Under the pieces are notes generated by a model. That model did not search any database, was not told where the DNA came from, and saw only the letters and a program-made list of their open reading frames with translations. From a phage, in the sequence record NC_100327.1: 64,000 nt of DNA. One strand, written 5' to 3'. Position 1 is the first letter of the stretch. Each line of letters begins with the position of its first letter. This document shows, piece after piece, positions 13,508 through 50,999 of the stretch. The position numbers and the translations under genes were made by a program.

Positions 13508-15844
13508 TTACCAAAGGTCGGTAGACATGAAGTTGATATCTTTATTGTTCTCCCACTCAAGTTTTGCATCAAATATTTTGTTAAACTCACCCTCATCTAT
13601 TGAAATCGTGATTTTCCCATCACTGATCTCTAAAGGTAGCATTTCCATAGTTCTTAATTGAGAAGCAAAACCAGGGCCACCCGGCAACGGAAGAGTCCCG
13701 CCCGGTAAGGTGTCCAAAGGATTAACAAACCCGTTACCTCCCGATATGATATCTTTGCGAATCATATCGCTGATAGTATCCAGCTGCTGATTTCTTTCAC
13801 TTAGTGGGTTGTAACGGTCATTAAATAATTCCCCGGCGCTTAGTATTGTACCGATAATGCCCAGCTTACCGAGCAGACCAACTTTGCCACCAGGTGTCTT
13901 GAGGCCACCTCCACCTTTTCCTGCCGGAGCTCCACCACCAGATCCTTCTGTAGTAGCGGCACCCGCTGCTCCAGCTGCACCTCTTAGAGAGTTAAGGAAT
14001 TTAAAGGTTTTTACAAGCATGGATGCCATGACAAAACCTTTTGTTAGGGCGTTGACTACCAGCATGATGGCAGCAGCAAACCCTGCCCATTTAGCATAGC
14101 TAAAGGTGTCATGAAGCTCTTCAGAATATTCCTTCGTCTTAGCTGTTATGAATCCCCATTTAATCCCCCATTCAAGGAAAAACATGCGGATCTTGACTAT
14201 AGTGTTGTTTAGTTCACCAACTACCCAGTTAAGGCCTCTCACAAACCCGCTAACAAAATCACCAGAGGCATCCCACACAAATTGCAGAGTCTCACCCGTG
14301 CGGATCAGTGTATAATAGAACTCTGTTAGTTCGTCAGACCAACGGGTGAACAGTTTCTGACGAGTCAGTTCGATGAAGGTTTTCAGTCTGTTTTCTGCCA
14401 GCACGTTAGACTTCTGCATTCTTTCATAACCAGCTGCAGATGCCTCGTTCATGTACTTAGCCACATACTTCATGATCTTGGCTGTTTTAACCTCACCTTT
14501 CTTCATCATGTCCATGAACTGATCCATGGAGAGTTCAGAAAGACCAAAAGCCTCTTTGGTGGCCTTGATAAAAGGTTCGTATGCACCAGGCAATGCTTCA
14601 GCAAGTTGTTGCTTCAGTTCTTCGGACATTACTTGTCCTTTCCCAAGCATCTGTTGGATTGCCATAATACCGCGCTGGTATTTTACCTCATCGGCACCAT
14701 AAGCAGCAGCATACTGTGAGTATGCAGAAAACAGCTCATGCACTTCCTGATTTGTCATCTGGTTTTTGGCGTTTACCGACATCTGGGCGTAACCTTGAAG
14801 ACCAGATTTGAGATCAAAACCAAGACGCATAGCCTCTTGCTGGACAAACGCAACCTCACTGTTGGCTTTGTTTGGATCTCCAGTAACAGCAGTAAGAGCA
14901 GCACTTGCCCCCTCCATCATGTGACCGGATCTGTTAACCGCAGCAAATCCAGAAAAAGCTGTATACGCAGCTGTTGCATTAATAACAGATCTACGTAAGT
15001 CTCTCATGGCATCGCCTAGTGTAAGCGTTTGGCTGGTGGCGCTTTTAAACCCAGACTGCAGCGCTGACAGGTGGGCGTTAAAGGTTGACTTCTTCATCTC
15101 CCCGCGAGCAAACCTGGACTCTAACTCTGAGTATCCTGGCAAGCTTCCACGGAATCCGGCCCCATACTTGGCAGAAAGTCTTATCGCGGAGTTGTAGAGG
15201 TGGGTTCTCCTTGCCTCACGATCCGACATAAGCCTATTATCCATACCAGCTTTACTGTCTCTTCTTAGCTGTCTATGATAACGATTCATAGCGGCTGTCT
15301 GAGCTTTCACAAGGTTAGGGTCGGAAGCTACACCACCCATATTAGGGTTACCGGGGATATATTTGAAAGCTTTGGCATTAGCCAGAACTCTTGCCTTAGG
15401 TGCCTTATAACCGCCGTAAGACACTGGTGCAGATTTGGCAGCCTTTTTGGCCTCTTTAGCTTGCTGCTGGTAGAACTTACGCATCCTAGCCATTTCTGGA
15501 TTTTTAGCGGTAAGATTACCTACAGCTTGTTTACGTCTCGCATTCTCCCTACGTTCTATTGCAGCCCTTACTGCAGCCTCTTTCTTGGCCTGTGCTACGC
15601 TCTCTCTGTGCAGTTTAGCATTTGCCTGAGATTGCTGTCTGGCAACCCTCTGCATTGTCTGCTGGGTTTTAACAGCTACCGCCTGCCATCTACTCATGGG
15701 GTTGGCTGAGTTAAAATCCTCGCCCAGTTTCCTGAACTCCCTCCCAATACTGCGAATTTTCTCTACAGCTTTTTTGTAGGAGGAGTTCTCTATCTCAAAG
15801 CCAATCTTGTTGACTGTTGTGGCAACTATTTTGTTTGTAGCCAT
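13508..15844 (-). CDS. tail tape measure protein
   Basis: 778 aa, downstream of a chaperone pair with a frameshift site; long helical/charged regions and a Gly/Ala-rich block (AAGAAGAATTEGSGGGAPAGKGGGG). Confidence 0.7.
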   Translation of the reverse strand: MATNKIVATTVNKIGFEIENSSYKKAVEKIRSIGREFRKLGEDFNSANPMSRWQAVAVKTQQTMQRVARQQSQANAKLHRESVAQAKKEAAVRAAIERRENARRKQAVGNLTAKNPEMARMRKFYQQQAKEAKKAAKSAPVSYGGYKAPKARVLANAKAFKYIPGNPNMGGVASDPNLVKAQTAAMNRYHRQLRRDSKAGMDNRLMSDREARRTHLYNSAIRLSAKYGAGFRGSLPGYSELESRFARGEMKKSTFNAHLSALQSGFKSATSQTLTLGDAMRDLRRSVINATAAYTAFSGFAAVNRSGHMMEGASAALTAVTGDPNKANSEVAFVQQEAMRLGFDLKSGLQGYAQMSVNAKNQMTNQEVHELFSAYSQYAAAYGADEVKYQRGIMAIQQMLGKGQVMSEELKQQLAEALPGAYEPFIKATKEAFGLSELSMDQFMDMMKKGEVKTAKIMKYVAKYMNEASAAGYERMQKSNVLAENRLKTFIELTRQKLFTRWSDELTEFYYTLIRTGETLQFVWDASGDFVSGFVRGLNWVVGELNNTIVKIRMFFLEWGIKWGFITAKTKEYSEELHDTFSYAKWAGFAAAIMLVVNALTKGFVMASMLVKTFKFLNSLRGAAGAAGAATTEGSGGGAPAGKGGGGLKTPGGKVGLLGKLGIIGTILSAGELFNDRYNPLSERNQQLDTISDMIRKDIISGGNGFVNPLDTLPGGTLPLPGGPGFASQLRTMEMLPLEISDGKITISIDEGEFNKIFDAKLEWENNKDINFMSTDLW

Positions 15845-15898
15845 GGTTTCCTCATAATAAAAAGGGCCAGATCCCAGAAAAGGAATCCGGCCCTTAGA

Positions 15899-16147
15899 TT
15901 ATCCTCTCCTGCGCTTAGCTTTCGCAGCAGCTGCGGCAGCCTTCTGCTCCCGCTCCATTTCCCTGTTTTGGACGGTATCTAGGAATTCTTCGATATCAAG
16001 ATACTCACAGAGCTTCAGGAAATACGCCATATCTGCAAGATTTAGCGATTCAAAATTTTCCCCTTTGAAATTCTTGAGCACCCTACACCAAAGAAAGTCG
16101 AACCAGTTGAGTGAACTGTTCTTGGCTGCCCACTCACTGGCCCTCAC
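15899..16147 (-). CDS. tail assembly chaperone, -1 frameshift extension (T-like part of a G/GT pair)
   Basis: Frame is -1 relative to the upstream chaperone and stays open back to the slippery site near 16258-16264. Confidence 0.5.
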   Translation of the reverse strand: MRASEWAAKNSSLNWFDFLWCRVLKNFKGENFESLNLADMAYFLKLCEYLDIEEFLDTVQNREMEREQKAAAAAAKAKRRRG

Positions 16148-16158
16148 AACAACCTTGC

Positions 16159-16632
16159 TTATTCCTGCTCTTCCGGAGTCTGATCCAGGTTGTTCACCTG
16201 CTGAATCATACCCATCTGCTGTAACATCTCCAGAAGGCTTCCTAAACCGTCTTGTGTGAAAAAACAGCCGTAGTTAACCTCCAGAACCTTACCTGCCAGC
16301 TTAATCATCTCCAGCAGATGCCCTGCAAACACAACATCTGGGTTAAGCTTATCCACACCATCTACGGTAATATCTTCGAACAAGATTTTAAATAACTCTT
16401 CAATAGAGCTATCATCAAGTTCTTGGAACAGGTAAGCCAGAGCAGTAGGAAGGACCTCTGCCATATTCTGACCACCAGAGATAATAGATCCACCGATAGC
16501 ACCTAGCGGGACAGCCACAATCTTACCGATTTTAGGCATGTTTTTCATTGCTTTCATCGGTCCCCAGTGGGTGATCACAAAGTTGTGCCCTGCTAAATCA
16601 ATCTCTGTTGTAGGTCTAAAGTTTATAGCCAT
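16159..16632 (-). CDS. tail assembly chaperone (G-like)
   Basis: 157-aa acidic protein between tube and tape measure; contains a U_UUU_UUC slippery heptamer about 35 codons before its stop. Confidence 0.5.
   Translation of the reverse strand: MAINFRPTTEIDLAGHNFVITHWGPMKAMKNMPKIGKIVAVPLGAIGGSIISGGQNMAEVLPTALAYLFQELDDSSIEELFKILFEDITVDGVDKLNPDVVFAGHLLEMIKLAGKVLEVNYGCFFTQDGLGSLLEMLQQMGMIQQVNNLDQTPEEQE
16258..16264 (-). promoter_or_regulatory. candidate -1 programmed ribosomal frameshift slippery site (T_TTT_TTC on the minus strand)
   Basis: Heptamer in the G frame (codons tgt ttt ttc); the -1 frame has no stop from here through the 15899..16147 ORF. Confidence 0.5.
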
Positions 16633-16744
16633 TTTATAGCATCCTTATTAGTCATGTTGTGCACCATATTTGTGTATTTTACCATGATTATGGTGCATTG
16701 TCAATTTAACCTTTCAAGCAATTCAAGAACGTGTGTCAAAACCA

Positions 16745-16778
16745 TAAAAGCAAAAAGCCCCACCCGAAGGTGAGGCTT
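16745..16778 (-). terminator. rho-independent terminator candidate after the tube gene
   Basis: Imperfect GC hairpin (aagccccacc cgaa ggtgaggctt) followed on the minus strand by a U-tract. Confidence 0.45.
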
Positions 16779-16794: not shown

Positions 16795-17268
16795 TTAGAT
16801 AATACCTGCAAGACCTGCGAGGCCAGTAAGAGCACCAGTGATGTTATCACGGTTGAGCCATGCATCCAGAATACCGATATCCCAGTCCAGCTGACCTACT
16901 TCGGTTCCGTAAGTCAGGTCAGGCTGTTTCTGGATCCAACCAATTGTGGAAATACCAGGACCCTGGCTACCTTCCAGCAGAACTGGGAAGAATACCAGAC
17001 CAGTAATCGATGCCTGTTTCTGCCAGTCAGAAAGGTAAGCGTTCCATACAGAAGTGTTCTGCAAAGATACAGTCATAACACCAGATTGGTTACGAGACAG
17101 GGCCGCAGACATTTCGCCATCCACACCGACGTGAGGGTAGATGTTGTCTTCGTTTCTTGAAACAACGATCTTGGTGTCAGCAGCGAAGCCAGTGACACGC
17201 TGCTGCATCAGGTACAGTTTGACCTTTTTAGGGTCATACGCATAAGGAGTTAAAATTTGAGTTTCCAT
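16795..17268 (-). CDS. tail tube protein (contractile-tail type)
   Basis: 157-aa ORF directly downstream of a 458-aa ORF and upstream of the chaperones and tape measure (sheath-tube-chaperone-TMP order). Confidence 0.45.
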   Translation of the reverse strand: METQILTPYAYDPKKVKLYLMQQRVTGFAADTKIVVSRNEDNIYPHVGVDGEMSAALSRNQSGVMTVSLQNTSVWNAYLSDWQKQASITGLVFFPVLLEGSQGPGISTIGWIQKQPDLTYGTEVGQLDWDIGILDAWLNRDNITGALTGLAGLAGII

Positions 17269-17278
17269 CTAGTCTTCC

Positions 17279-18655
17279 TTATTCAGTCATTGCAACAGCA
17301 TTGGTGGATTTAGAACCAACTTTGTCCAGAAGAACGTTGATCCGGATACGAACGAAGTGCAGGGCGTTGTTATACACCAGTTCCACTTTCACACCTTCCA
17401 GAACACGAGCAGCCAACTGATTGGTTGGGATTTCTGCACGTTTAGGAACTGTGATGATCGGGTCGTAGAATACATTATTGTCTTCGTCGAAACCTGTCAG
17501 GATCGCACCATTCTTAATGCCAGTGTTGATTGGGTTGTTCATCAGGACAGACTTGATAACCGGAAGATCATCATCAGACATCTTCATGCTTAAACCCATG
17601 TTGGAGCGACGATGCATGTACCCAAACATAGATTCTTCAGATCTGAACTTGATCCAGTGTGCAAAACGAATAGCGTCTGCATACTGACCTGAAGCACACT
17701 TACCTTCCCAGAAAGCGCCAACACCGTTAATCATTCTGTAGAAGTTAACGTGGTTTTCCCAAATAGCCATACGCTGAGTTAAAGTCAGAGACGGTGCAAT
17801 CACACCTGGCATCTGTTTTAAGTGCAAGCTGTCGCCGTAAGACGGATCGTTGGATGCCATAGCACCTATGATACCACCCTCCGGGAAGTCCTTATCTGCG
17901 CGAGGATCGTACATGCCGACACTGTCATATTGTGCAGCTTTCAGTTTGGTGGCGATGTTATTATCTTTACCAGTCACATCTTCTGCAGTAGAGTAGACGT
18001 GCAGCTTGTAGTTGGCCTGAGCCCACTTAGCACATGCTTCAATGTCGGTGTGGTCTTCATGGCACAGGAAGTACCAATTGTCCCGCTCAGCATTGATCTT
18101 ATCAACTACTGTAGAAGGTTTTTCAGCATTGGCGATATTTTTAATTGTATAGTTACCAGTATGATAACCTACAGTGCAGTCACCAGTGATGGTGATAACA
18201 CCGTCTTCAGCCGCTACAGTGATATCGTCCAAGTTATCATCTGCTTCGATTTTAGTCTTCATGGACTCTGCGATCTGAGTTGCAGCTGTCCCACCAGAGA
18301 TAGGAACTATCAAAGAGGTATTGTAGCCACCTTTTGCAATAGTCATTACTACATCGGTATCAGCTGCGGCAGCAATACCTTTAAAATCTACAGTGGTTTT
18401 TTCTTTGGCCTGTCTGCCGATCATAACATATTGTGGAGGGAATACACCACCAAAAGCTTTTGCTGCAAACTCATACGCTGCAGAGCCTTGTGCGAAACCA
18501 TCTTCCACCATCTGATCCAGCTCCGCATATACGCGAGCTCGCTCAGTAAAGTTGTTGTGGATAGCGATGAACAGGGGAGTTTCGAAACCTACAGTGTCAA
18601 TAGGTTGGGTTCCGAGGTTAACTGTAACATCTACCACTTTATCTAAATATGGCAT
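17279..18655 (-). CDS. tail sheath protein
   Basis: 458 aa, immediately upstream of the tube gene; assignment by size and gene order only. Confidence 0.45.
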   Translation of the reverse strand: MPYLDKVVDVTVNLGTQPIDTVGFETPLFIAIHNNFTERARVYAELDQMVEDGFAQGSAAYEFAAKAFGGVFPPQYVMIGRQAKEKTTVDFKGIAAAADTDVVMTIAKGGYNTSLIVPISGGTAATQIAESMKTKIEADDNLDDITVAAEDGVITITGDCTVGYHTGNYTIKNIANAEKPSTVVDKINAERDNWYFLCHEDHTDIEACAKWAQANYKLHVYSTAEDVTGKDNNIATKLKAAQYDSVGMYDPRADKDFPEGGIIGAMASNDPSYGDSLHLKQMPGVIAPSLTLTQRMAIWENHVNFYRMINGVGAFWEGKCASGQYADAIRFAHWIKFRSEESMFGYMHRRSNMGLSMKMSDDDLPVIKSVLMNNPINTGIKNGAILTGFDEDNNVFYDPIITVPKRAEIPTNQLAARVLEGVKVELVYNNALHFVRIRINVLLDKVGSKSTNAVAMTE

Positions 18656-32859: not shown

Positions 32860-33069
32860 TCAACAGATTCCGGCCTTATCCTTCCTGTCTGCGTATTCTT
32901 TAATCGCAACCTCATCTGCATTAGTGACCAGGTCTTCAAAGTAACTCTCAAGCTCCTCGTCAATGTCAGGAGACCAGCTCTTTTTCCTGTCAGTGTGAAT
33001 TGCAGACTTGTTGAACTTATTACAGTTCTTTGCTACCGGGTTGTTCATTAAGCGCTCCTCAGCGTTCAT
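32860..33069 (-). CDS. hypothetical protein
   Basis: 69-aa ORF overlapping the stop of the upstream gene. Confidence 0.3.
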   Translation of the reverse strand: MNAEERLMNNPVAKNCNKFNKSAIHTDRKKSWSPDIDEELESYFEDLVTNADEVAIKEYADRKDKAGIC

Positions 33070-33637
33070 AGTAAATTTTATTTAACATTACCTCATCTTT
33101 TGCAGAAAGAATACCGAGATATGCATCACCGAATCTACCTGCAACAACCTCTGCATGATACATCACTTCGTTAATATCGTCAAGAGTGATAACTGGATGA
33201 CCGTATCTCTCTGAGTATTGTCTCAGAGTGCGATGTAGAGAGTCATCATCATAGGCAGACTTTTTAATATCACAAACACGACGAATAGCCTTGATGTCGA
33301 AAAAACCTGTGCGATACCACCCAAGAAAAAGGTTTCGTGCAGTGTCAACATCTACATTGATACCATCAAGAACCTTATCTACAAGATAGCTGTCATCCTT
33401 TGGACCAGCGTCCTTAGTGCGAATGTAGTTGCCATCTTTTCCAGGCGACATCTCCTTCTCATCCCCAACCTGCATGCCATCATTTGGCGGTGTTAGCCAC
33501 TTATCCGGATGCTTACGATCACGAGCGTTAGAATGATTACGCTGGAAACCGGGCTTCCACTTGAAAGTTTTCTCCATCTGTTCTTCATTCTGATAACGTT
33601 TTGCAATCTTTTCACGGTCATCTTTGCGTGAACCCAT
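33059..33637 (-). CDS. hypothetical protein (first gene of the minus-strand late operon)
   Basis: 192-aa ORF immediately downstream of the large non-coding block. Confidence 0.35.
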   Translation of the reverse strand: MGSRKDDREKIAKRYQNEEQMEKTFKWKPGFQRNHSNARDRKHPDKWLTPPNDGMQVGDEKEMSPGKDGNYIRTKDAGPKDDSYLVDKVLDGINVDVDTARNLFLGWYRTGFFDIKAIRRVCDIKKSAYDDDSLHRTLRQYSERYGHPVITLDDINEVMYHAEVVAGRFGDAYLGILSAKDEVMLNKIYYER

Positions 33638-47154: not shown

Positions 47155-47973
47155 TTGAGCAAGAAAGAGTCCAACGACAAATATTACACAAACCCTGAGT
47201 ATGCAGAATATCTTGTTGGTAAAGTAAAAGATAAGTATGGAAATTGTGCATACGTTGAGCCTTCTGCTGGAAGGGGTTCTTTTTCAAAACTATTTTCAGA
47301 GATACTGTCTTACGATCTAGTACCAGATCCTGAATTTGAAGGACCAACACCGTGCATTCAGGCAAACTTCTTGGAGGTGCATCCCAAGGCAGATGTCTTC
47401 ATAGGTAACCCACCATTTGGCAAGAATTCATCTTTAGCTTGCAAATTCTTTAACCATTGTGCATCATTGCTAGAGCTTGGAGGGGCTATAGCCTTCATCT
47501 TGCCACGGACATTTGAAAAAATATTTTTTGCAAACAAACTGGACATGTCGATGCACCTTGTCTACAGTGAAAGGTGCCCTAAGAACTCGTTTCTACTTAA
47601 TGGCAAACCTTATGACGTGCCGTGTGTTTTCCAAATTTGGGAGAAAAAGGCGTGCAACAGGGATCCTGTAGAGATTGGGGAGAATAAGTTATTTTCTTTT
47701 AGCACTCCAGATGACTACGACTTCTGTGTAAGACGTGTTGGGTATAATGCTGGAAAAGTATTGGGGGAGGATGACCCAAAATCTGAAGAATCAACATATT
47801 TCATAAAATCTTTAGTTGACGGTGTTGACAGAGTGTTTGCTGAATGCTATTCTTCTTTTCAAGAAGAAGCAGGTAAGACTGCCGGAATGAAGAGTATAGG
47901 TAAGAAAGAACTACAATACATTTTGGAGACTAGGTATGATCAAAAGCATAGACTTGACCAAAGAACTTACTGA
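47155..47973 (+). CDS. DNA N6-adenine methyltransferase (NPPF catalytic motif)
   Basis: Motif I VEPSAGRGSF and motif IV IGNPPFG; start set at TTG 47155 after a GGAGG RBS (track start lies inside the terminator hairpin). Confidence 0.55.
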   Translation: MSKKESNDKYYTNPEYAEYLVGKVKDKYGNCAYVEPSAGRGSFSKLFSEILSYDLVPDPEFEGPTPCIQANFLEVHPKADVFIGNPPFGKNSSLACKFFNHCASLLELGGAIAFILPRTFEKIFFANKLDMSMHLVYSERCPKNSFLLNGKPYDVPCVFQIWEKKACNRDPVEIGENKLFSFSTPDDYDFCVRRVGYNAGKVLGEDDPKSEESTYFIKSLVDGVDRVFAECYSSFQEEAGKTAGMKSIGKKELQYILETRYDQKHRLDQRTY

Positions 47974-48394
47974 TGCAAAAGCTTTTGGTGAGACAGCGGT
48001 ACAAAGGGGGCAGGCGATGGGACTGGCACTACCTTTCGTATTAAAAGAGCACTTTACAGATTTTCAACTTATCAAGGGTGATAAGGGAATGCTTATCCTG
48101 GAGCATAAGTTGAGTAAGAAACGCTATAAAGTTGTTTTTAATTCTAAAGCTCCAACAAAACTGGGATTCAGAACTTACAATCTTAACCCATCCTACACTA
48201 AGGGTGTTGGAAGGGTAGAACAACAGCATTTCAGTGCCAGAGCTTCTTTAGCCCCTTTGATGCTAAATTTCTCAGGGGTGGCTTTAGGATACCTTGATAA
48301 GAAAAGAGTTCTTCATGTCCGTTTCACAGACTTTGTAACGCTTCTAGCCAACAACGAGGTTGATGAAAAGGGACGTGTAAAAACAAACTTCTAA
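47936..48394 (+). CDS. hypothetical protein
   Basis: 152-aa ORF. Confidence 0.3.
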   Translation: MIKSIDLTKELTDAKAFGETAVQRGQAMGLALPFVLKEHFTDFQLIKGDKGMLILEHKLSKKRYKVVFNSKAPTKLGFRTYNLNPSYTKGVGRVEQQHFSARASLAPLMLNFSGVALGYLDKKRVLHVRFTDFVTLLANNEVDEKGRVKTNF

Positions 48395-49815: not shown

Positions 49816-50016
49816 ATGGGCAGATGTTCTAAAGGTGGCGATCCTGTAGTCAGATACGGTGACTGGCTAGAGGTGTATGATCTGGGAGGTAAGCTGGTGT
49901 ATGCCTCCAGGATCACCCAAGACATGTGCTCCGATATGTTCAACAGATACCTTGCATTTAAGGCCAACATAAACCCAGACGAAATTTCCAAAATTAAAAC
50001 AAGGAGAGCTAAATAA
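49816..50016 (+). CDS. hypothetical protein
   Basis: 66-aa ORF coupled to thyX. Confidence 0.3.
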   Translation: MGRCSKGGDPVVRYGDWLEVYDLGGKLVYASRITQDMCSDMFNRYLAFKANINPDEISKIKTRRAK

Positions 50017-50999
50017 TGCTAAAACTGTGCACTGCAAAGATCATTGCTGACAGCATTTCCGAGAAAGGTAAGCGCATCACCACTTTTGAGCTAGAGTATC
50101 CTCGAATTATTCACTCAGAGCTTATGACGCACCGAGTGTTCAGCCGAAACGCCATGTCTTCCCGTGCAGTGCCTGTCGGAAAGATGCTGCAACAGATTGT
50201 GGAGAATCCGGCAATGCCAGTTCGCTTCGGTGTAAATAAGCGAGGAATGGAAGATGGTGGGGAACACGATCAAAAGATCCGTGTAGAGTACACTGATATG
50301 GAGCTAACTCCGGAAGAGTTTTGGAAAGAAGCTGCAAAAAACGCCGCTTGGCATGCAGAGAAGTTTGCCCTTGCTGGTTACCATAAGCAAGTATGTAACC
50401 GCTTAGTGGAGCCTTTTCAGCGCATGAAAACAGTTGTAACAAGCACCGAGTGGAATAATTTTTTCCACCTCCGTTGCTGGCACGATGCGGATCCTACGAT
50501 TCAGATGTTAGCTAATTGTATGTGGGAGGCTCTTGTGAATAGCACTCCTGAAATCCTTAAACCGGGTCAATGGCACACTCCATATGTAGAGCACGTTTAT
50601 TTGGACGGGGAGTTTAACTACGCTGTACGTGACACAGAAGGAAAGCTCTGCATTCTCGATACTAAAGAAGCTCTGTCTATCAGTGCTAGTTGCTGTGCAC
50701 AAGTATCTTATCGAAATATTGACAGCACGTTTGAAAAGGCAGACAGTGTGGCTAAAAAATTGATTGGTGGGGATCGTATTCATGCAAGCCCTTACGAGCA
50801 CCAGGCAACACCTATGGATCACGATAACGCAATGGAACGTTTAAACTACTACCTGTCTTCATGTGAAATCACACAAGACATCAGTACTTGGCAGGAAGGT
50901 GTAACCCATCAAGACCGTGATGGTAAATTCTGGTCTGCCAACTTTTGTGGGTGGGTTCAGCACAGACAACTGCTTAATAACCACTTCGTGAAAGGTTAA
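50016..50999 (+). CDS. thyX: flavin-dependent thymidylate synthase ThyX
   Basis: ThyX signature RHRx7S (HRVFSRNAMSSRA); 327 aa. Confidence 0.8.
   Translation: MLKLCTAKIIADSISEKGKRITTFELEYPRIIHSELMTHRVFSRNAMSSRAVPVGKMLQQIVENPAMPVRFGVNKRGMEDGGEHDQKIRVEYTDMELTPEEFWKEAAKNAAWHAEKFALAGYHKQVCNRLVEPFQRMKTVVTSTEWNNFFHLRCWHDADPTIQMLANCMWEALVNSTPEILKPGQWHTPYVEHVYLDGEFNYAVRDTEGKLCILDTKEALSISASCCAQVSYRNIDSTFEKADSVAKKLIGGDRIHASPYEHQATPMDHDNAMERLNYYLSSCEITQDISTWQEGVTHQDRDGKFWSANFCGWVQHRQLLNNHFVKG

What the first reader, a model, noticed from the sequence alone, without database searches (positions are those of the whole stretch)
15899..16632. Programmed -1 frameshift site linking the two tail assembly chaperone ORFs
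The 16159..16632 ORF contains a U_UUU_UUC slippery heptamer (complement of 16258-16264) about 35 codons before its stop. The -1 frame is open from that point through the 15899..16147 ORF. This is the conserved G/GT arrangement upstream of the tape measure gene and confirms the tail-module assignment.
Basis: partly seen in the sequence, partly recalled or inferred. Interest (0 to 1): 0.4.

Follow-up and report, generated by a model that had tools for sequence, protein, structure and literature searches.

The report
Tail chaperone -1 frameshift site, rV5-like phage
This is the well-known ribosome-slipping trick that tailed phages use to make a short and a long version of their tail-assembly chaperone. 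It is clearly present and strongly conserved in this rV5-like E. coli phage, although every public record I checked annotates it as two separate genes.

Summary
On the minus strand, T_TTT_TTC (16264..16258) lies in the zero-frame register (TGT TTT TTC) of the 157-aa ORF 16159..16632. The -1 frame is open from 16273 to the stop at 15899. A -1 slip would give a 244-aa fusion.

The window is a Vequintavirus, 99% identical to phage Murica. Gene order is sheath, tube, G, T, tape measure. G matches Pfam Phage_TAC_15 at 83 bits.

This is far more than chance:
- Of 60 in-frame X_XXY_YYZ heptamers in the window's 69 ORFs, only this one is followed by a long -1 frame (119 codons; the next longest is 37).
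- Eleven GenBank relatives at 28-55% identity and all 33 IMG/VR loci keep exactly NNT TTT TTC while neighbouring synonymous sites vary.
- A twelfth GenBank relative, a Rheinheimera phage, carries the lambda-type G_GGA_AAG instead.
- The conserved T-domain sequence starts upstream of any start codon in the relatives.

No conserved downstream RNA structure was found.

Verdict: a standard lambda G/GT-type programmed -1 ribosomal frameshift. It is unannotated in all 17 GenBank records inspected. I found no description of it for Vequintavirinae, but a 2025 paper proposes the equivalent signal in sister families. It is a new member of a known kind and of low interest.

The parts
16159..16632 (-). 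Gene G: 157-aa tail assembly chaperone, the product of standard translation (rV5 gp51 equivalent)
   Evidence: ORF and translation. Pfam PF21822 Phage_TAC_15, 83 bits against a cut-off of 22; phrog_3840 tail assembly chaperone, 6.5e-69. RefSeq Murica annotates it as 'tail assembly chaperone'.
16258..16264 (-). Slippery heptamer T_TTT_TTC in zero-frame register (TGT TTT TTC = Cys-Phe-Phe); proposed site of the -1 tandem tRNA-Phe slip
   Evidence: The same nine nucleotides (NNT TTT TTC) occur in 11 GenBank relatives and 33 IMG/VR loci. Expected frequency of this codon choice given C-F-F is about 0.12.
15899..16258 (-). -1 frame read after the slip: 119 codons plus stop. These comprise a Ser/Gly/Asp/Pro-rich linker of about 32 aa and then the conserved T domain. 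GT = join(16632..16258, 16258..15899), 244 aa
   Evidence: no internal stop; the T-domain block ISKVV.RA..Y..KNSSL.WFDYLW... is conserved across relatives.
16159..16273 (-). Overlap zone in which both the G frame and the -1 frame are open (115 nt); the -1 frame opens just after the TAA at 16276..16274
   Evidence: The zone contains only one in-frame slippery heptamer.
15899..16147 (-). ORF annotated in public records as a separate 82-aa 'hypothetical protein' (rV5 gp50 equivalent, GTG start). Here it is interpreted as the C-terminal part of GT, not an independent gene
   Evidence: phrog_10409 'unknown function'; its GTG lies 5 residues inside the conserved T block, and relatives have no start codon at or upstream of that block.
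16278..16282 (-). GGAGG, a Shine-Dalgarno-like pentamer 13 nt upstream of the heptamer. It is a possible dnaX-style upstream stimulator (inference only). It also encodes the conserved Leu-Glu-Val
   Evidence: Read directly. It is only partly conserved in relatives: GGAGGT, GGAGAT, GAAGAT, TGAGGT, CAGGTG.
16676..16704 (-). Near-consensus sigma-70-type promoter (TTGACA-17-TAAAAT with TG) upstream of G
   Evidence: 11 of 12 matches. The same element is listed as P051, both as a sigma-70-like and as a putative late promoter, in the rV5 paper's Table S4.
16755..16778 (-). Intrinsic-terminator-like hairpin between the tube gene and G
   Evidence: Equals t052 of rV5 Table S4. Annotated as a terminator in Murica.
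15862..15895 (-). Intrinsic-terminator-like hairpin (14 bp) immediately after the GT stop, before the tape-measure gene
   Evidence: Equals t050 of rV5 Table S4, -24.2 kcal/mol.
13508..15844 (-). Tape measure protein gene (778 aa), the presumed client of G/GT
   Evidence: PF20155 TMP_3, 67.6 bits; phrog_5255, 1139 bits.
16795..17268 (-). Tail tube protein gene (157 aa), the presumed partner of the T domain
   Evidence: PF11681; annotated 'tail tube protein'. The rV5 paper identifies gp52 as tail tube.
17279..18655 (-). Tail sheath gene (458 aa)
   Evidence: DUF3383; phrog_205 tail sheath, 1.2e-118..

Best explanation
This is a lambda G/GT-type programmed -1 ribosomal frameshift in the tail assembly chaperone gene of an rV5-like myovirus. 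Most ribosomes translate G (157 aa) to its own stop. A minority shift while tRNA-Phe occupies both the P site (UUU) and the A site (UUC) on U_UUU_UUC. Both tRNAs re-pair one base back (UUU UUU), and translation continues in the -1 frame with CAC (His). The product is a 244-aa GT protein made of G residues 1-125, a flexible Ser/Gly-rich linker and a conserved helical T domain of about 85 aa. By analogy with lambda (inferred, not shown here), the shared G part coats the tape measure protein, and the T domain of the rare GT recruits the tube protein so that the tail tube polymerises to the right length. Neither protein ends up in the virion. Shown here: the heptamer and its register, the open -1 frame, TAC homology, gene order, deep conservation of signal and frame, and the lack of an independent start for T in relatives. 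Inferred: that the shift happens, its efficiency, and the binding roles.
For: (1) The anatomy fits: the heptamer is in register and the -1 frame is open for 119 codons through the downstream ORF. (2) G is a tail assembly chaperone located between tube and tape measure. (3) Window-internal control: this is the only one of 60 in-frame heptamers with a long -1 frame. (4) Eleven GenBank relatives at 28-55% aa identity keep T_TTT_TTC in register, with T always in the -1 frame and GT free of stops. They include Seunavirus, Henunavirus, Avunavirus, Certrevirus, W70, phAPEC8, two other Stephanstirmvirinae-type phages (Eryne, FKP3) and Aeromonas phiA009. All 33 IMG/VR loci do the same, with the -1 frame open for 101-132 codons. 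(5) Synonymous-site constraint: the nine nucleotides NNT TTT TTC are invariant, while adjacent synonymous sites vary (TAC/TAT, GGC/GGA/GGT, ACA/ACG/GGC/AAA). The chance of that codon choice given C-F-F is about 0.12 per independent lineage. (6) Rheinheimera phage Barba5A has lost the FF motif and carries G_GGA_AAG two to three codons downstream, still leading into the -1 T frame. A different canonical slippery heptamer at the same place argues for selection on slippage itself. (7) The conserved T block begins upstream of every possible ATG/GTG/TTG in the relatives; in Klebsiella K54_rec2 the first start lies 44 residues into the block. T therefore cannot be made by independent initiation there. 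(8) Among near-identical strains, substitutions in the T region are mostly synonymous in the T frame, whereas in the overlap they are synonymous in the G frame. (9) A 2025 paper proposes the same solution, with a GTTTTT motif, for the related Vandenendeviridae and Andersonviridae. The mechanism and roles of lambda G/GT are as reviewed in PMC5009743.
Against: There is no protein-level evidence. The rV5 virion proteome supplement contains no G or T peptides, which is expected for chaperones but uninformative about GT. No conserved or unusually stable downstream RNA structure was found (window z = -1.0; no consensus pairs), so efficiency may be low. In this phage a GTG with a weak AAGG upstream could allow some independent initiation of a truncated T. 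All 17 GenBank records inspected annotate at most separate ORFs and none annotates a joined CDS. A run of six T could in principle also allow RNA polymerase slippage.
Confidence: 0.9

Rival explanations
1. Two independent genes: T (82 aa) is translated from its own GTG at 16147, as annotated in GenBank. On this view the heptamer is just the codons for a conserved Cys-Phe-Phe motif.
For: Public records annotate it this way. A GTG with a weak AAGG/AGG upstream exists in this phage. FF is conserved at the protein level.
Against: The GTG lies inside the conserved T block, and most relatives have no start codon for tens of residues into that block. The -1 frame is kept open across the 'intergenic' gap in all 45 relatives. 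Codon choice at C/P-F-F is invariant although only about 12% is expected. Barba5A replaced the motif with another slippery heptamer.
Confidence: 0.04
2. The same GT fusion is made by transcriptional slippage. RNA polymerase would add one extra U on the T6 run, so a minority of mRNAs encode GT in a single frame.
For: The site is a homopolymeric run of six T, invariant in length across 44 relatives. Transcriptional slippage is a known route to frameshifted products (review PMC5009743).
Against: From general knowledge, six residues is shorter than the runs of about 8-9 that give appreciable slippage by bacterial RNA polymerase. The run is always held in the exact X_XXY_YYZ codon register, which matters for ribosomes but not for polymerase. 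Barba5A uses G_GGA_AAG, with runs of only three, which supports tRNA re-pairing and not polymerase slippage.
Confidence: 0.05
3. Chance coincidence: a random heptamer happens to precede a fortuitously open -1 frame, with no biological meaning.
For: In-frame heptamers are not rare: 60 occur in the window, and 0.12 are expected in an overlap of this size.
Against: The -1 frame length of 119 codons is unique among the 60 heptamers. The arrangement is conserved in all 45 relatives examined.
Confidence: 0.01

Closest known systems
Bacteriophage lambda G/GT tail assembly chaperones (Levin, Hendrix and Casjens 1993; Xu, Hendrix and Duda 2004, 2013, 2014; as reviewed in PMC5009743)
   Same: Two overlapping ORFs lie directly upstream of the tape measure gene. 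[quoted passage not shown] A short abundant product and a rare long product share the N-terminal chaperone domain. From my own knowledge, lambda does not need a downstream stimulatory structure, which would match the absence of one here.
   Different: The heptamer is U_UUU_UUC instead of G_GGA_AAG. The phage is a contractile-tailed myovirus of 137 kb. G belongs to Pfam Phage_TAC_15, not to lambda gpG's family. The G/T pair is bracketed by its own promoter and terminators. There are no experimental data.
Proposed -1 PRF in the TAC locus of Pakpunavirus/Vandenendeviridae and Andersonviridae (phage Adele paper, PMC12846349, 2025)
   Same: Myoviruses with a related virion architecture. A poly-T slippery motif (invariant GTTTTT) lies near the 3' end of TAC-N. 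The -1 frame is uninterrupted across what is routinely annotated as a separate hypothetical ORF or as intergenic DNA. The conclusion is drawn from comparative genomics.
   Different: That paper did not report the locus for Vequintavirinae or Stephanstirmvirinae. I did not test sequence homology between those TACs and this one. Some lineages here have C before the T run (CCT TTT TTC), so 'GTTTTT' is not universal.
Phage P2 E/E+E' and Mu gp41/42 (myovirus examples in Xu et al. 2004; recalled from my own knowledge, not retrieved here)
   Same: Contractile-tailed phages with a tube, then G-like, T-like and tape-measure gene order. P2 has a T-rich slippery heptamer (T_TTT_TTG).
   Different: Different protein families. 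Those cases have experimental support.

Membership tests
G/GT-type tail assembly chaperone frameshift (Xu, Hendrix and Duda 2004) | A pair of ORFs lies between the major tail/tube gene and the tape measure gene | tested here: met
   Tube 16795..17268, G 16159..16632, T 15899..16147, TMP 13508..15844, all on the minus strand.
G/GT-type tail assembly chaperone frameshift (Xu, Hendrix and Duda 2004) | The second ORF overlaps the 3' end of the first in a shifted frame, with a slippery sequence in register inside the overlap | tested here: met
   The -1 frame is open from 16273. T_TTT_TTC at 16264..16258 is in register and is the only heptamer in the 115-nt overlap.
G/GT-type tail assembly chaperone frameshift (Xu, Hendrix and Duda 2004) | The arrangement (frame relationship and slip site) is conserved in divergent relatives despite sequence divergence | tested here: met
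   12 GenBank relatives and 33 IMG/VR loci; 44 carry T_TTT_TTC and 1 carries G_GGA_AAG; all have T in the -1 frame.
G/GT-type tail assembly chaperone frameshift (Xu, Hendrix and Duda 2004) | The downstream ORF lacks its own conserved translation start | tested here: met
   No ATG/GTG/TTG lies at or upstream of the conserved T block in any relative. In the window the GTG lies 5 aa inside the block.
G/GT-type tail assembly chaperone frameshift (Xu, Hendrix and Duda 2004) | Both G and a low-abundance GT fusion are actually produced (about 30:1 in lambda) | not testable with these tools
   Needs a western blot, MS or a reporter assay. The predicted junction tryptic peptide is VLEVNYGCFFHTR.
G/GT-type tail assembly chaperone frameshift (Xu, Hendrix and Duda 2004) | Both products are required for tail assembly and are absent from mature virions | tested here: inconclusive
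   None of the six G or T peptide strings I searched for occurs in the rV5 virion MS supplement, and gp50/gp51 are not named among virion proteins. This is consistent with absence, but it is weak negative evidence. The requirement for assembly was not tested.
Pfam PF21822 Phage_TAC_15 (tail assembly chaperone) | Score above the curated gathering threshold | tested here: met
   83 bits against a cut-off of 22, residues 15-129 on profile positions 2-125 of 127. The GT fusion scores 79.9 bits.
-1 PRF with a downstream stimulatory hairpin or pseudoknot (dnaX / IS / coronavirus type) | A stable, conserved RNA structure lies 5-9 nt 3' of the heptamer | tested here: not met
   Window MFE is -24.1 kcal/mol with z = -1.0, and the predicted stem starts 19 nt after the heptamer. 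RNAalifold on 12 relatives gives zero consensus pairs.

The most novel reading that the evidence does not exclude
The Vequintavirinae/Stephanstirmvirinae TAC uses a structure-independent U_UUU_UUC signal whose nine nucleotides (NNU UUU UUC, never UUU as the last codon) are frozen across very deep divergence. The signal may be assisted by an upstream SD-like GGAGG. It sits in a small transcription unit with its own dual early/late promoter and flanking terminators. If so, the G:GT:TMP stoichiometry would be set jointly by transcription attenuation and frameshifting, not by frameshifting alone.
Probability: 0.15. Interest if true: 0.35.

Novelty: new member of a known kind. Interest (0 to 1): 0.2.

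Why it matters
The main value is for annotation. More than a hundred rV5-like genomes, and hundreds of relatives (Seunavirus, Certrevirus, Phapecoctavirus, phi92-like and others), carry a 'hypothetical protein' (phrog_10409 and phrog_8811, 'unknown function'). This ORF is almost certainly the C-terminal domain of a frameshifted chaperone, and gene callers start it at arbitrary internal codons. Annotating GT as a joined CDS would remove a spurious ORFan family. It would also give the correct protein for structural and assembly studies of these phages, some of which are used therapeutically. The G_GGA_AAG replacement in Rheinheimera phages is a neat natural experiment showing that selection acts on slippage. 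It adds nothing conceptually new to recoding biology.

Tried and rejected
1. Downstream stimulatory RNA structure. Folding the 100 nt from the heptamer gave z = -1.0, and the alignment fold of 12 relatives gave no pairs. Rejected.

2. Solved structures. Nothing matched GT at E <= 1. The T domain has no Pfam family.

3. A GenBank record that already annotates a joined or slippage CDS. Seventeen records were inspected and none does. Single-feature rows turned out to be records that simply omit the T ORF.

4. Phage NHEP1, which annotates T as two small ORFs. I suspected a disrupting mutation, but the alignment shows no stop or indel, only different gene calls.

5. Literature. Searches for rV5, Vequintavirus, Vequintavirinae or rV5-like combined with 'frameshift' found no description of this site. 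The rV5 genome paper does not mention frameshift, chaperone or tape measure.

6. rV5 virion MS supplement. It holds none of the six G or T peptide strings searched for. This is uninformative for GT.

7. I did not run the large protein-database searches or structure prediction, because the answer did not depend on them.

8. L008 (Pectobacterium POP18) was fetched but not analysed, because it has no annotation.

Full report
WHAT IS THERE. The window region is 99% identical to Escherichia phage Murica and to more than 100 other rV5-like phages of the genus Vequintavirus. On the minus strand the genes run as follows:
- tail sheath, 17279..18655 (DUF3383; phrog_205)
- tail tube, 16795..17268 (PF11681; rV5 gp52)
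- a 157-aa ORF, 16159..16632
- an 82-aa GTG ORF, 15899..16147
- tape measure protein, 13508..15844 (PF20155 TMP_3; phrog_5255)

The 157-aa protein is a tail assembly chaperone. It matches Pfam PF21822 Phage_TAC_15 at 83 bits against a cut-off of 22, and phrog_3840 at 6.5e-69. The 82-aa ORF matches only 'unknown function' PHROGs.

CHECK OF THE OBSERVATION. Reading the minus strand from ATG 16632 gives the codons ...TAC GGC TGT TTT TTC ACA.... T_TTT_TTC at 16264..16258 is therefore exactly in the X_XXY_YYZ register. The -1 frame has its last stop at 16276..16274 and is open to the TAA at 15901..15899. It runs straight through the annotated 82-aa ORF. A -1 slip gives G residues 1-125, then 119 residues starting His-Thr-Arg-Arg-Phe-Arg, for 244 aa in all with no internal stop.

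IS IT MORE THAN CHANCE? Within the window I took 69 non-overlapping ORFs of at least 100 aa (18,290 codons). They contain 60 in-frame X_XXY_YYZ heptamers, so about 0.12 would be expected in a 38-codon overlap. In-frame TTTTTTC occurs three times. For each heptamer I measured how far the -1 frame stays open. This site gives 119 codons, the next best gives 37, and the median at any codon position is 6. It is the only heptamer whose -1 frame runs 50 or more codons past the zero-frame stop.

COMPARATIVE EVIDENCE. A tblastn search with G found 490 phage records. I fetched 12 analysable relatives at 28-55% identity: PVP-SE1, Klebsiella K54_rec2, Erwinia SNUABM_55, phage 18-1-2, W70, Cronobacter PBES02, Pantoea F5M2A, phAPEC8, Aeromonas phiA009, Rheinheimera Barba5A, Eryne and Klebsiella FKP3. 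The findings were:
- In all of them the downstream ORF is in the -1 frame, and the frame is open from shortly upstream of the slip site.
- Eleven have T_TTT_TTC in register at the aligned position.
- In Eryne, FKP3 and phAPEC8 it is preceded by an overlapping C_CCT_TTT.
- Barba5A has lost the Phe-Phe motif. It carries the classical lambda heptamer G_GGA_AAG two to three codons downstream, again leading into T.
- Predicted GT lengths are 231-252 aa, with no internal stops.

A scan of IMG/VR with the G alignment returned 33 loci. The scan pattern required the FF dipeptide at the protein level but did not constrain codon choice. All 33 read NNT TTT TTC (19 TGT, 14 CCT), and their -1 frames stay open for 101-132 codons. 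Adjacent synonymous positions vary freely: TAC/TAT, GGC/GGA/GGT, and ACA/ACG/GGC/GGA/AAA/AAG/GAG. With this phage's codon usage, P(TGT TTT TTC | Cys-Phe-Phe) is about 0.12. Identical nucleotides in at least five deeply separated lineages are therefore very unlikely without selection on the RNA sequence. My rough estimate is 0.12^5, about 2.5e-5, assuming independent lineages and saturated synonymous sites.

T IS NOT AN INDEPENDENT GENE. Aligning the -1 frame translations shows two parts. First comes a variable Ser/Gly/Asp/Pro-rich linker. Then comes a well-conserved domain, ISKVV.RA..YA.KNSSL.WFDYLW.R.LK.FKGE...SLE..DM.YLLKLNEYLD..EF. In no relative is there an ATG, GTG or TTG at or upstream of the start of that block. 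In Klebsiella K54_rec2 the first possible start is 44 residues into it, and in the Certrevirus phages it is 28. In the window the GTG lies 5 residues inside the block. Gene callers therefore pick arbitrary internal starts, giving annotated T lengths of 43-88 aa. Among near-identical strains, substitutions in T are mostly synonymous in the T frame. In the overlap they are synonymous in the G frame and change the -1 frame linker. This is the pattern expected for a real G C-terminus overlapping a tolerant linker.

MECHANISM. The best explanation is tandem -1 slippage of two tRNA-Phe on U_UUU_UUC, as in the lambda G/GT paradigm. There G coats the tape measure protein, and the T domain of the rare GT recruits the tube subunit (reviewed in PMC5009743). 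I found no stimulatory structure. The 100 nt from the heptamer fold no better than shuffled sequence (z = -1.0), and 12 relatives share no consensus pairs. A GGAGG lies 13 nt upstream of the heptamer, at 16282..16278. From my own knowledge of E. coli dnaX, this is within the spacing at which an SD-like element stimulates -1 shifting. However, it also encodes the conserved Leu-Glu-Val and is only partly conserved, so I rate this as speculation.

RIVAL MECHANISMS. RNA-polymerase slippage on the T6 run would give the same protein. I consider it unlikely for three reasons: the run is short, the codon register is strictly kept, and Barba5A uses G_GGA_AAG. Independent initiation of T and pure chance are effectively excluded by the comparative data.

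TRANSCRIPTION CONTEXT. The G/T pair is bracketed by a near-consensus TTGACA-17-TAAAAT promoter with TG (16704..16676) and by terminator-like hairpins at 16778..16755 and 15895..15862. These correspond to P051, t052 and t050 in Table S4 of the rV5 genome paper. P051 is listed there both as sigma-70-like and as a putative late promoter.

COMPARISON WITH WHAT IS KNOWN. This is the conserved tail-chaperone frameshift of Xu, Hendrix and Duda (2004). All sequence-level defining features were tested and met. Production of both proteins and their requirement for assembly cannot be tested here.

None of the 17 GenBank records I inspected annotates a joined CDS. The rV5 genome paper does not mention frameshift, chaperone or tape measure. 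My literature searches found no description for Vequintavirinae. A December 2025 paper on Pseudomonas phage Adele argues for the same -1 frameshift in Vandenendeviridae and Andersonviridae, on the same kind of comparative evidence and with an invariant GTTTTT motif. It describes those clades as related to Vequintavirinae.

VERDICT. The finding is correct and well supported, but ordinary. It is a new, unannotated member of a well-known kind. Confidence that GT is made by -1 ribosomal frameshifting at this heptamer is about 0.9. Interest is about 0.2.

Noticed in passing
window 16676-16704 (-), 16755-16778 (-), 15862-15895 (-): The chaperone pair has its own near-consensus sigma-70 promoter with an extended -10. 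It is flanked on both sides by strong terminator-like hairpins, which separate it from the tube gene upstream and the tape-measure gene downstream. The same elements are listed as P051, t052 and t050 in the rV5 paper, where P051 is scored both as an early-type and as a late-type promoter.
   Followed up: partly
L013:1530-1536 (Rheinheimera phage Barba5A), compared with window 16258-16264: This lineage replaced T_TTT_TTC with the lambda-type G_GGA_AAG two to three codons downstream. It also has a minus-strand 'putative DNA binding protein' gene inserted between T and the tape-measure gene.
   Followed up: partly
L011:1572-1581, L014:1572-1581, L015:1524-1533 and 14 IMG/VR loci (L035, L039-L050): Stephanstirmvirinae-type relatives carry two overlapping in-register slippery heptamers, C_CCT_TTT and T_TTT_TTC (GGC CCT TTT TTC). 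This gives two adjacent opportunities for a -1 slip into the same frame.
   Followed up: no
search hits (e.g. MG065635, MG065652, MG065655): About 18-23 records named 'Campylobacter phage' with host Campylobacter jejuni are 99-100% identical to E. coli rV5-like phages and carry no annotation. They are probably mislabelled or contaminant assemblies.
   Followed up: no
window 50459-50465 (+) in ORF 50016-50999; window 33299-33305 (-) in ORF 33059-33637: These are the two other in-frame T_TTT_TTC heptamers in the window. At the first, the -1 frame closes after 16 codons, well before the zero-frame stop. The second is not among the twelve longest -1 frames (at most 14 codons). Both look like chance occurrences and served as internal negative controls.
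   Followed up: yes
window 48367-48373 (+) in ORF 47936-48394: An in-frame A_AAG_GGA lies 6 codons before the stop, and its -1 frame runs 37 codons past it. This is the only other heptamer in the window whose -1 frame passes the zero-frame stop. It is probably just an overlap with the next gene.
   Followed up: no
L012 (Aeromonas phage phiA009), T-frame linker: The GT linker carries an insertion of about 12 residues (KEEISLVLRKSKQ) relative to all other relatives. This shows that the linker tolerates length changes.
   Followed up: no
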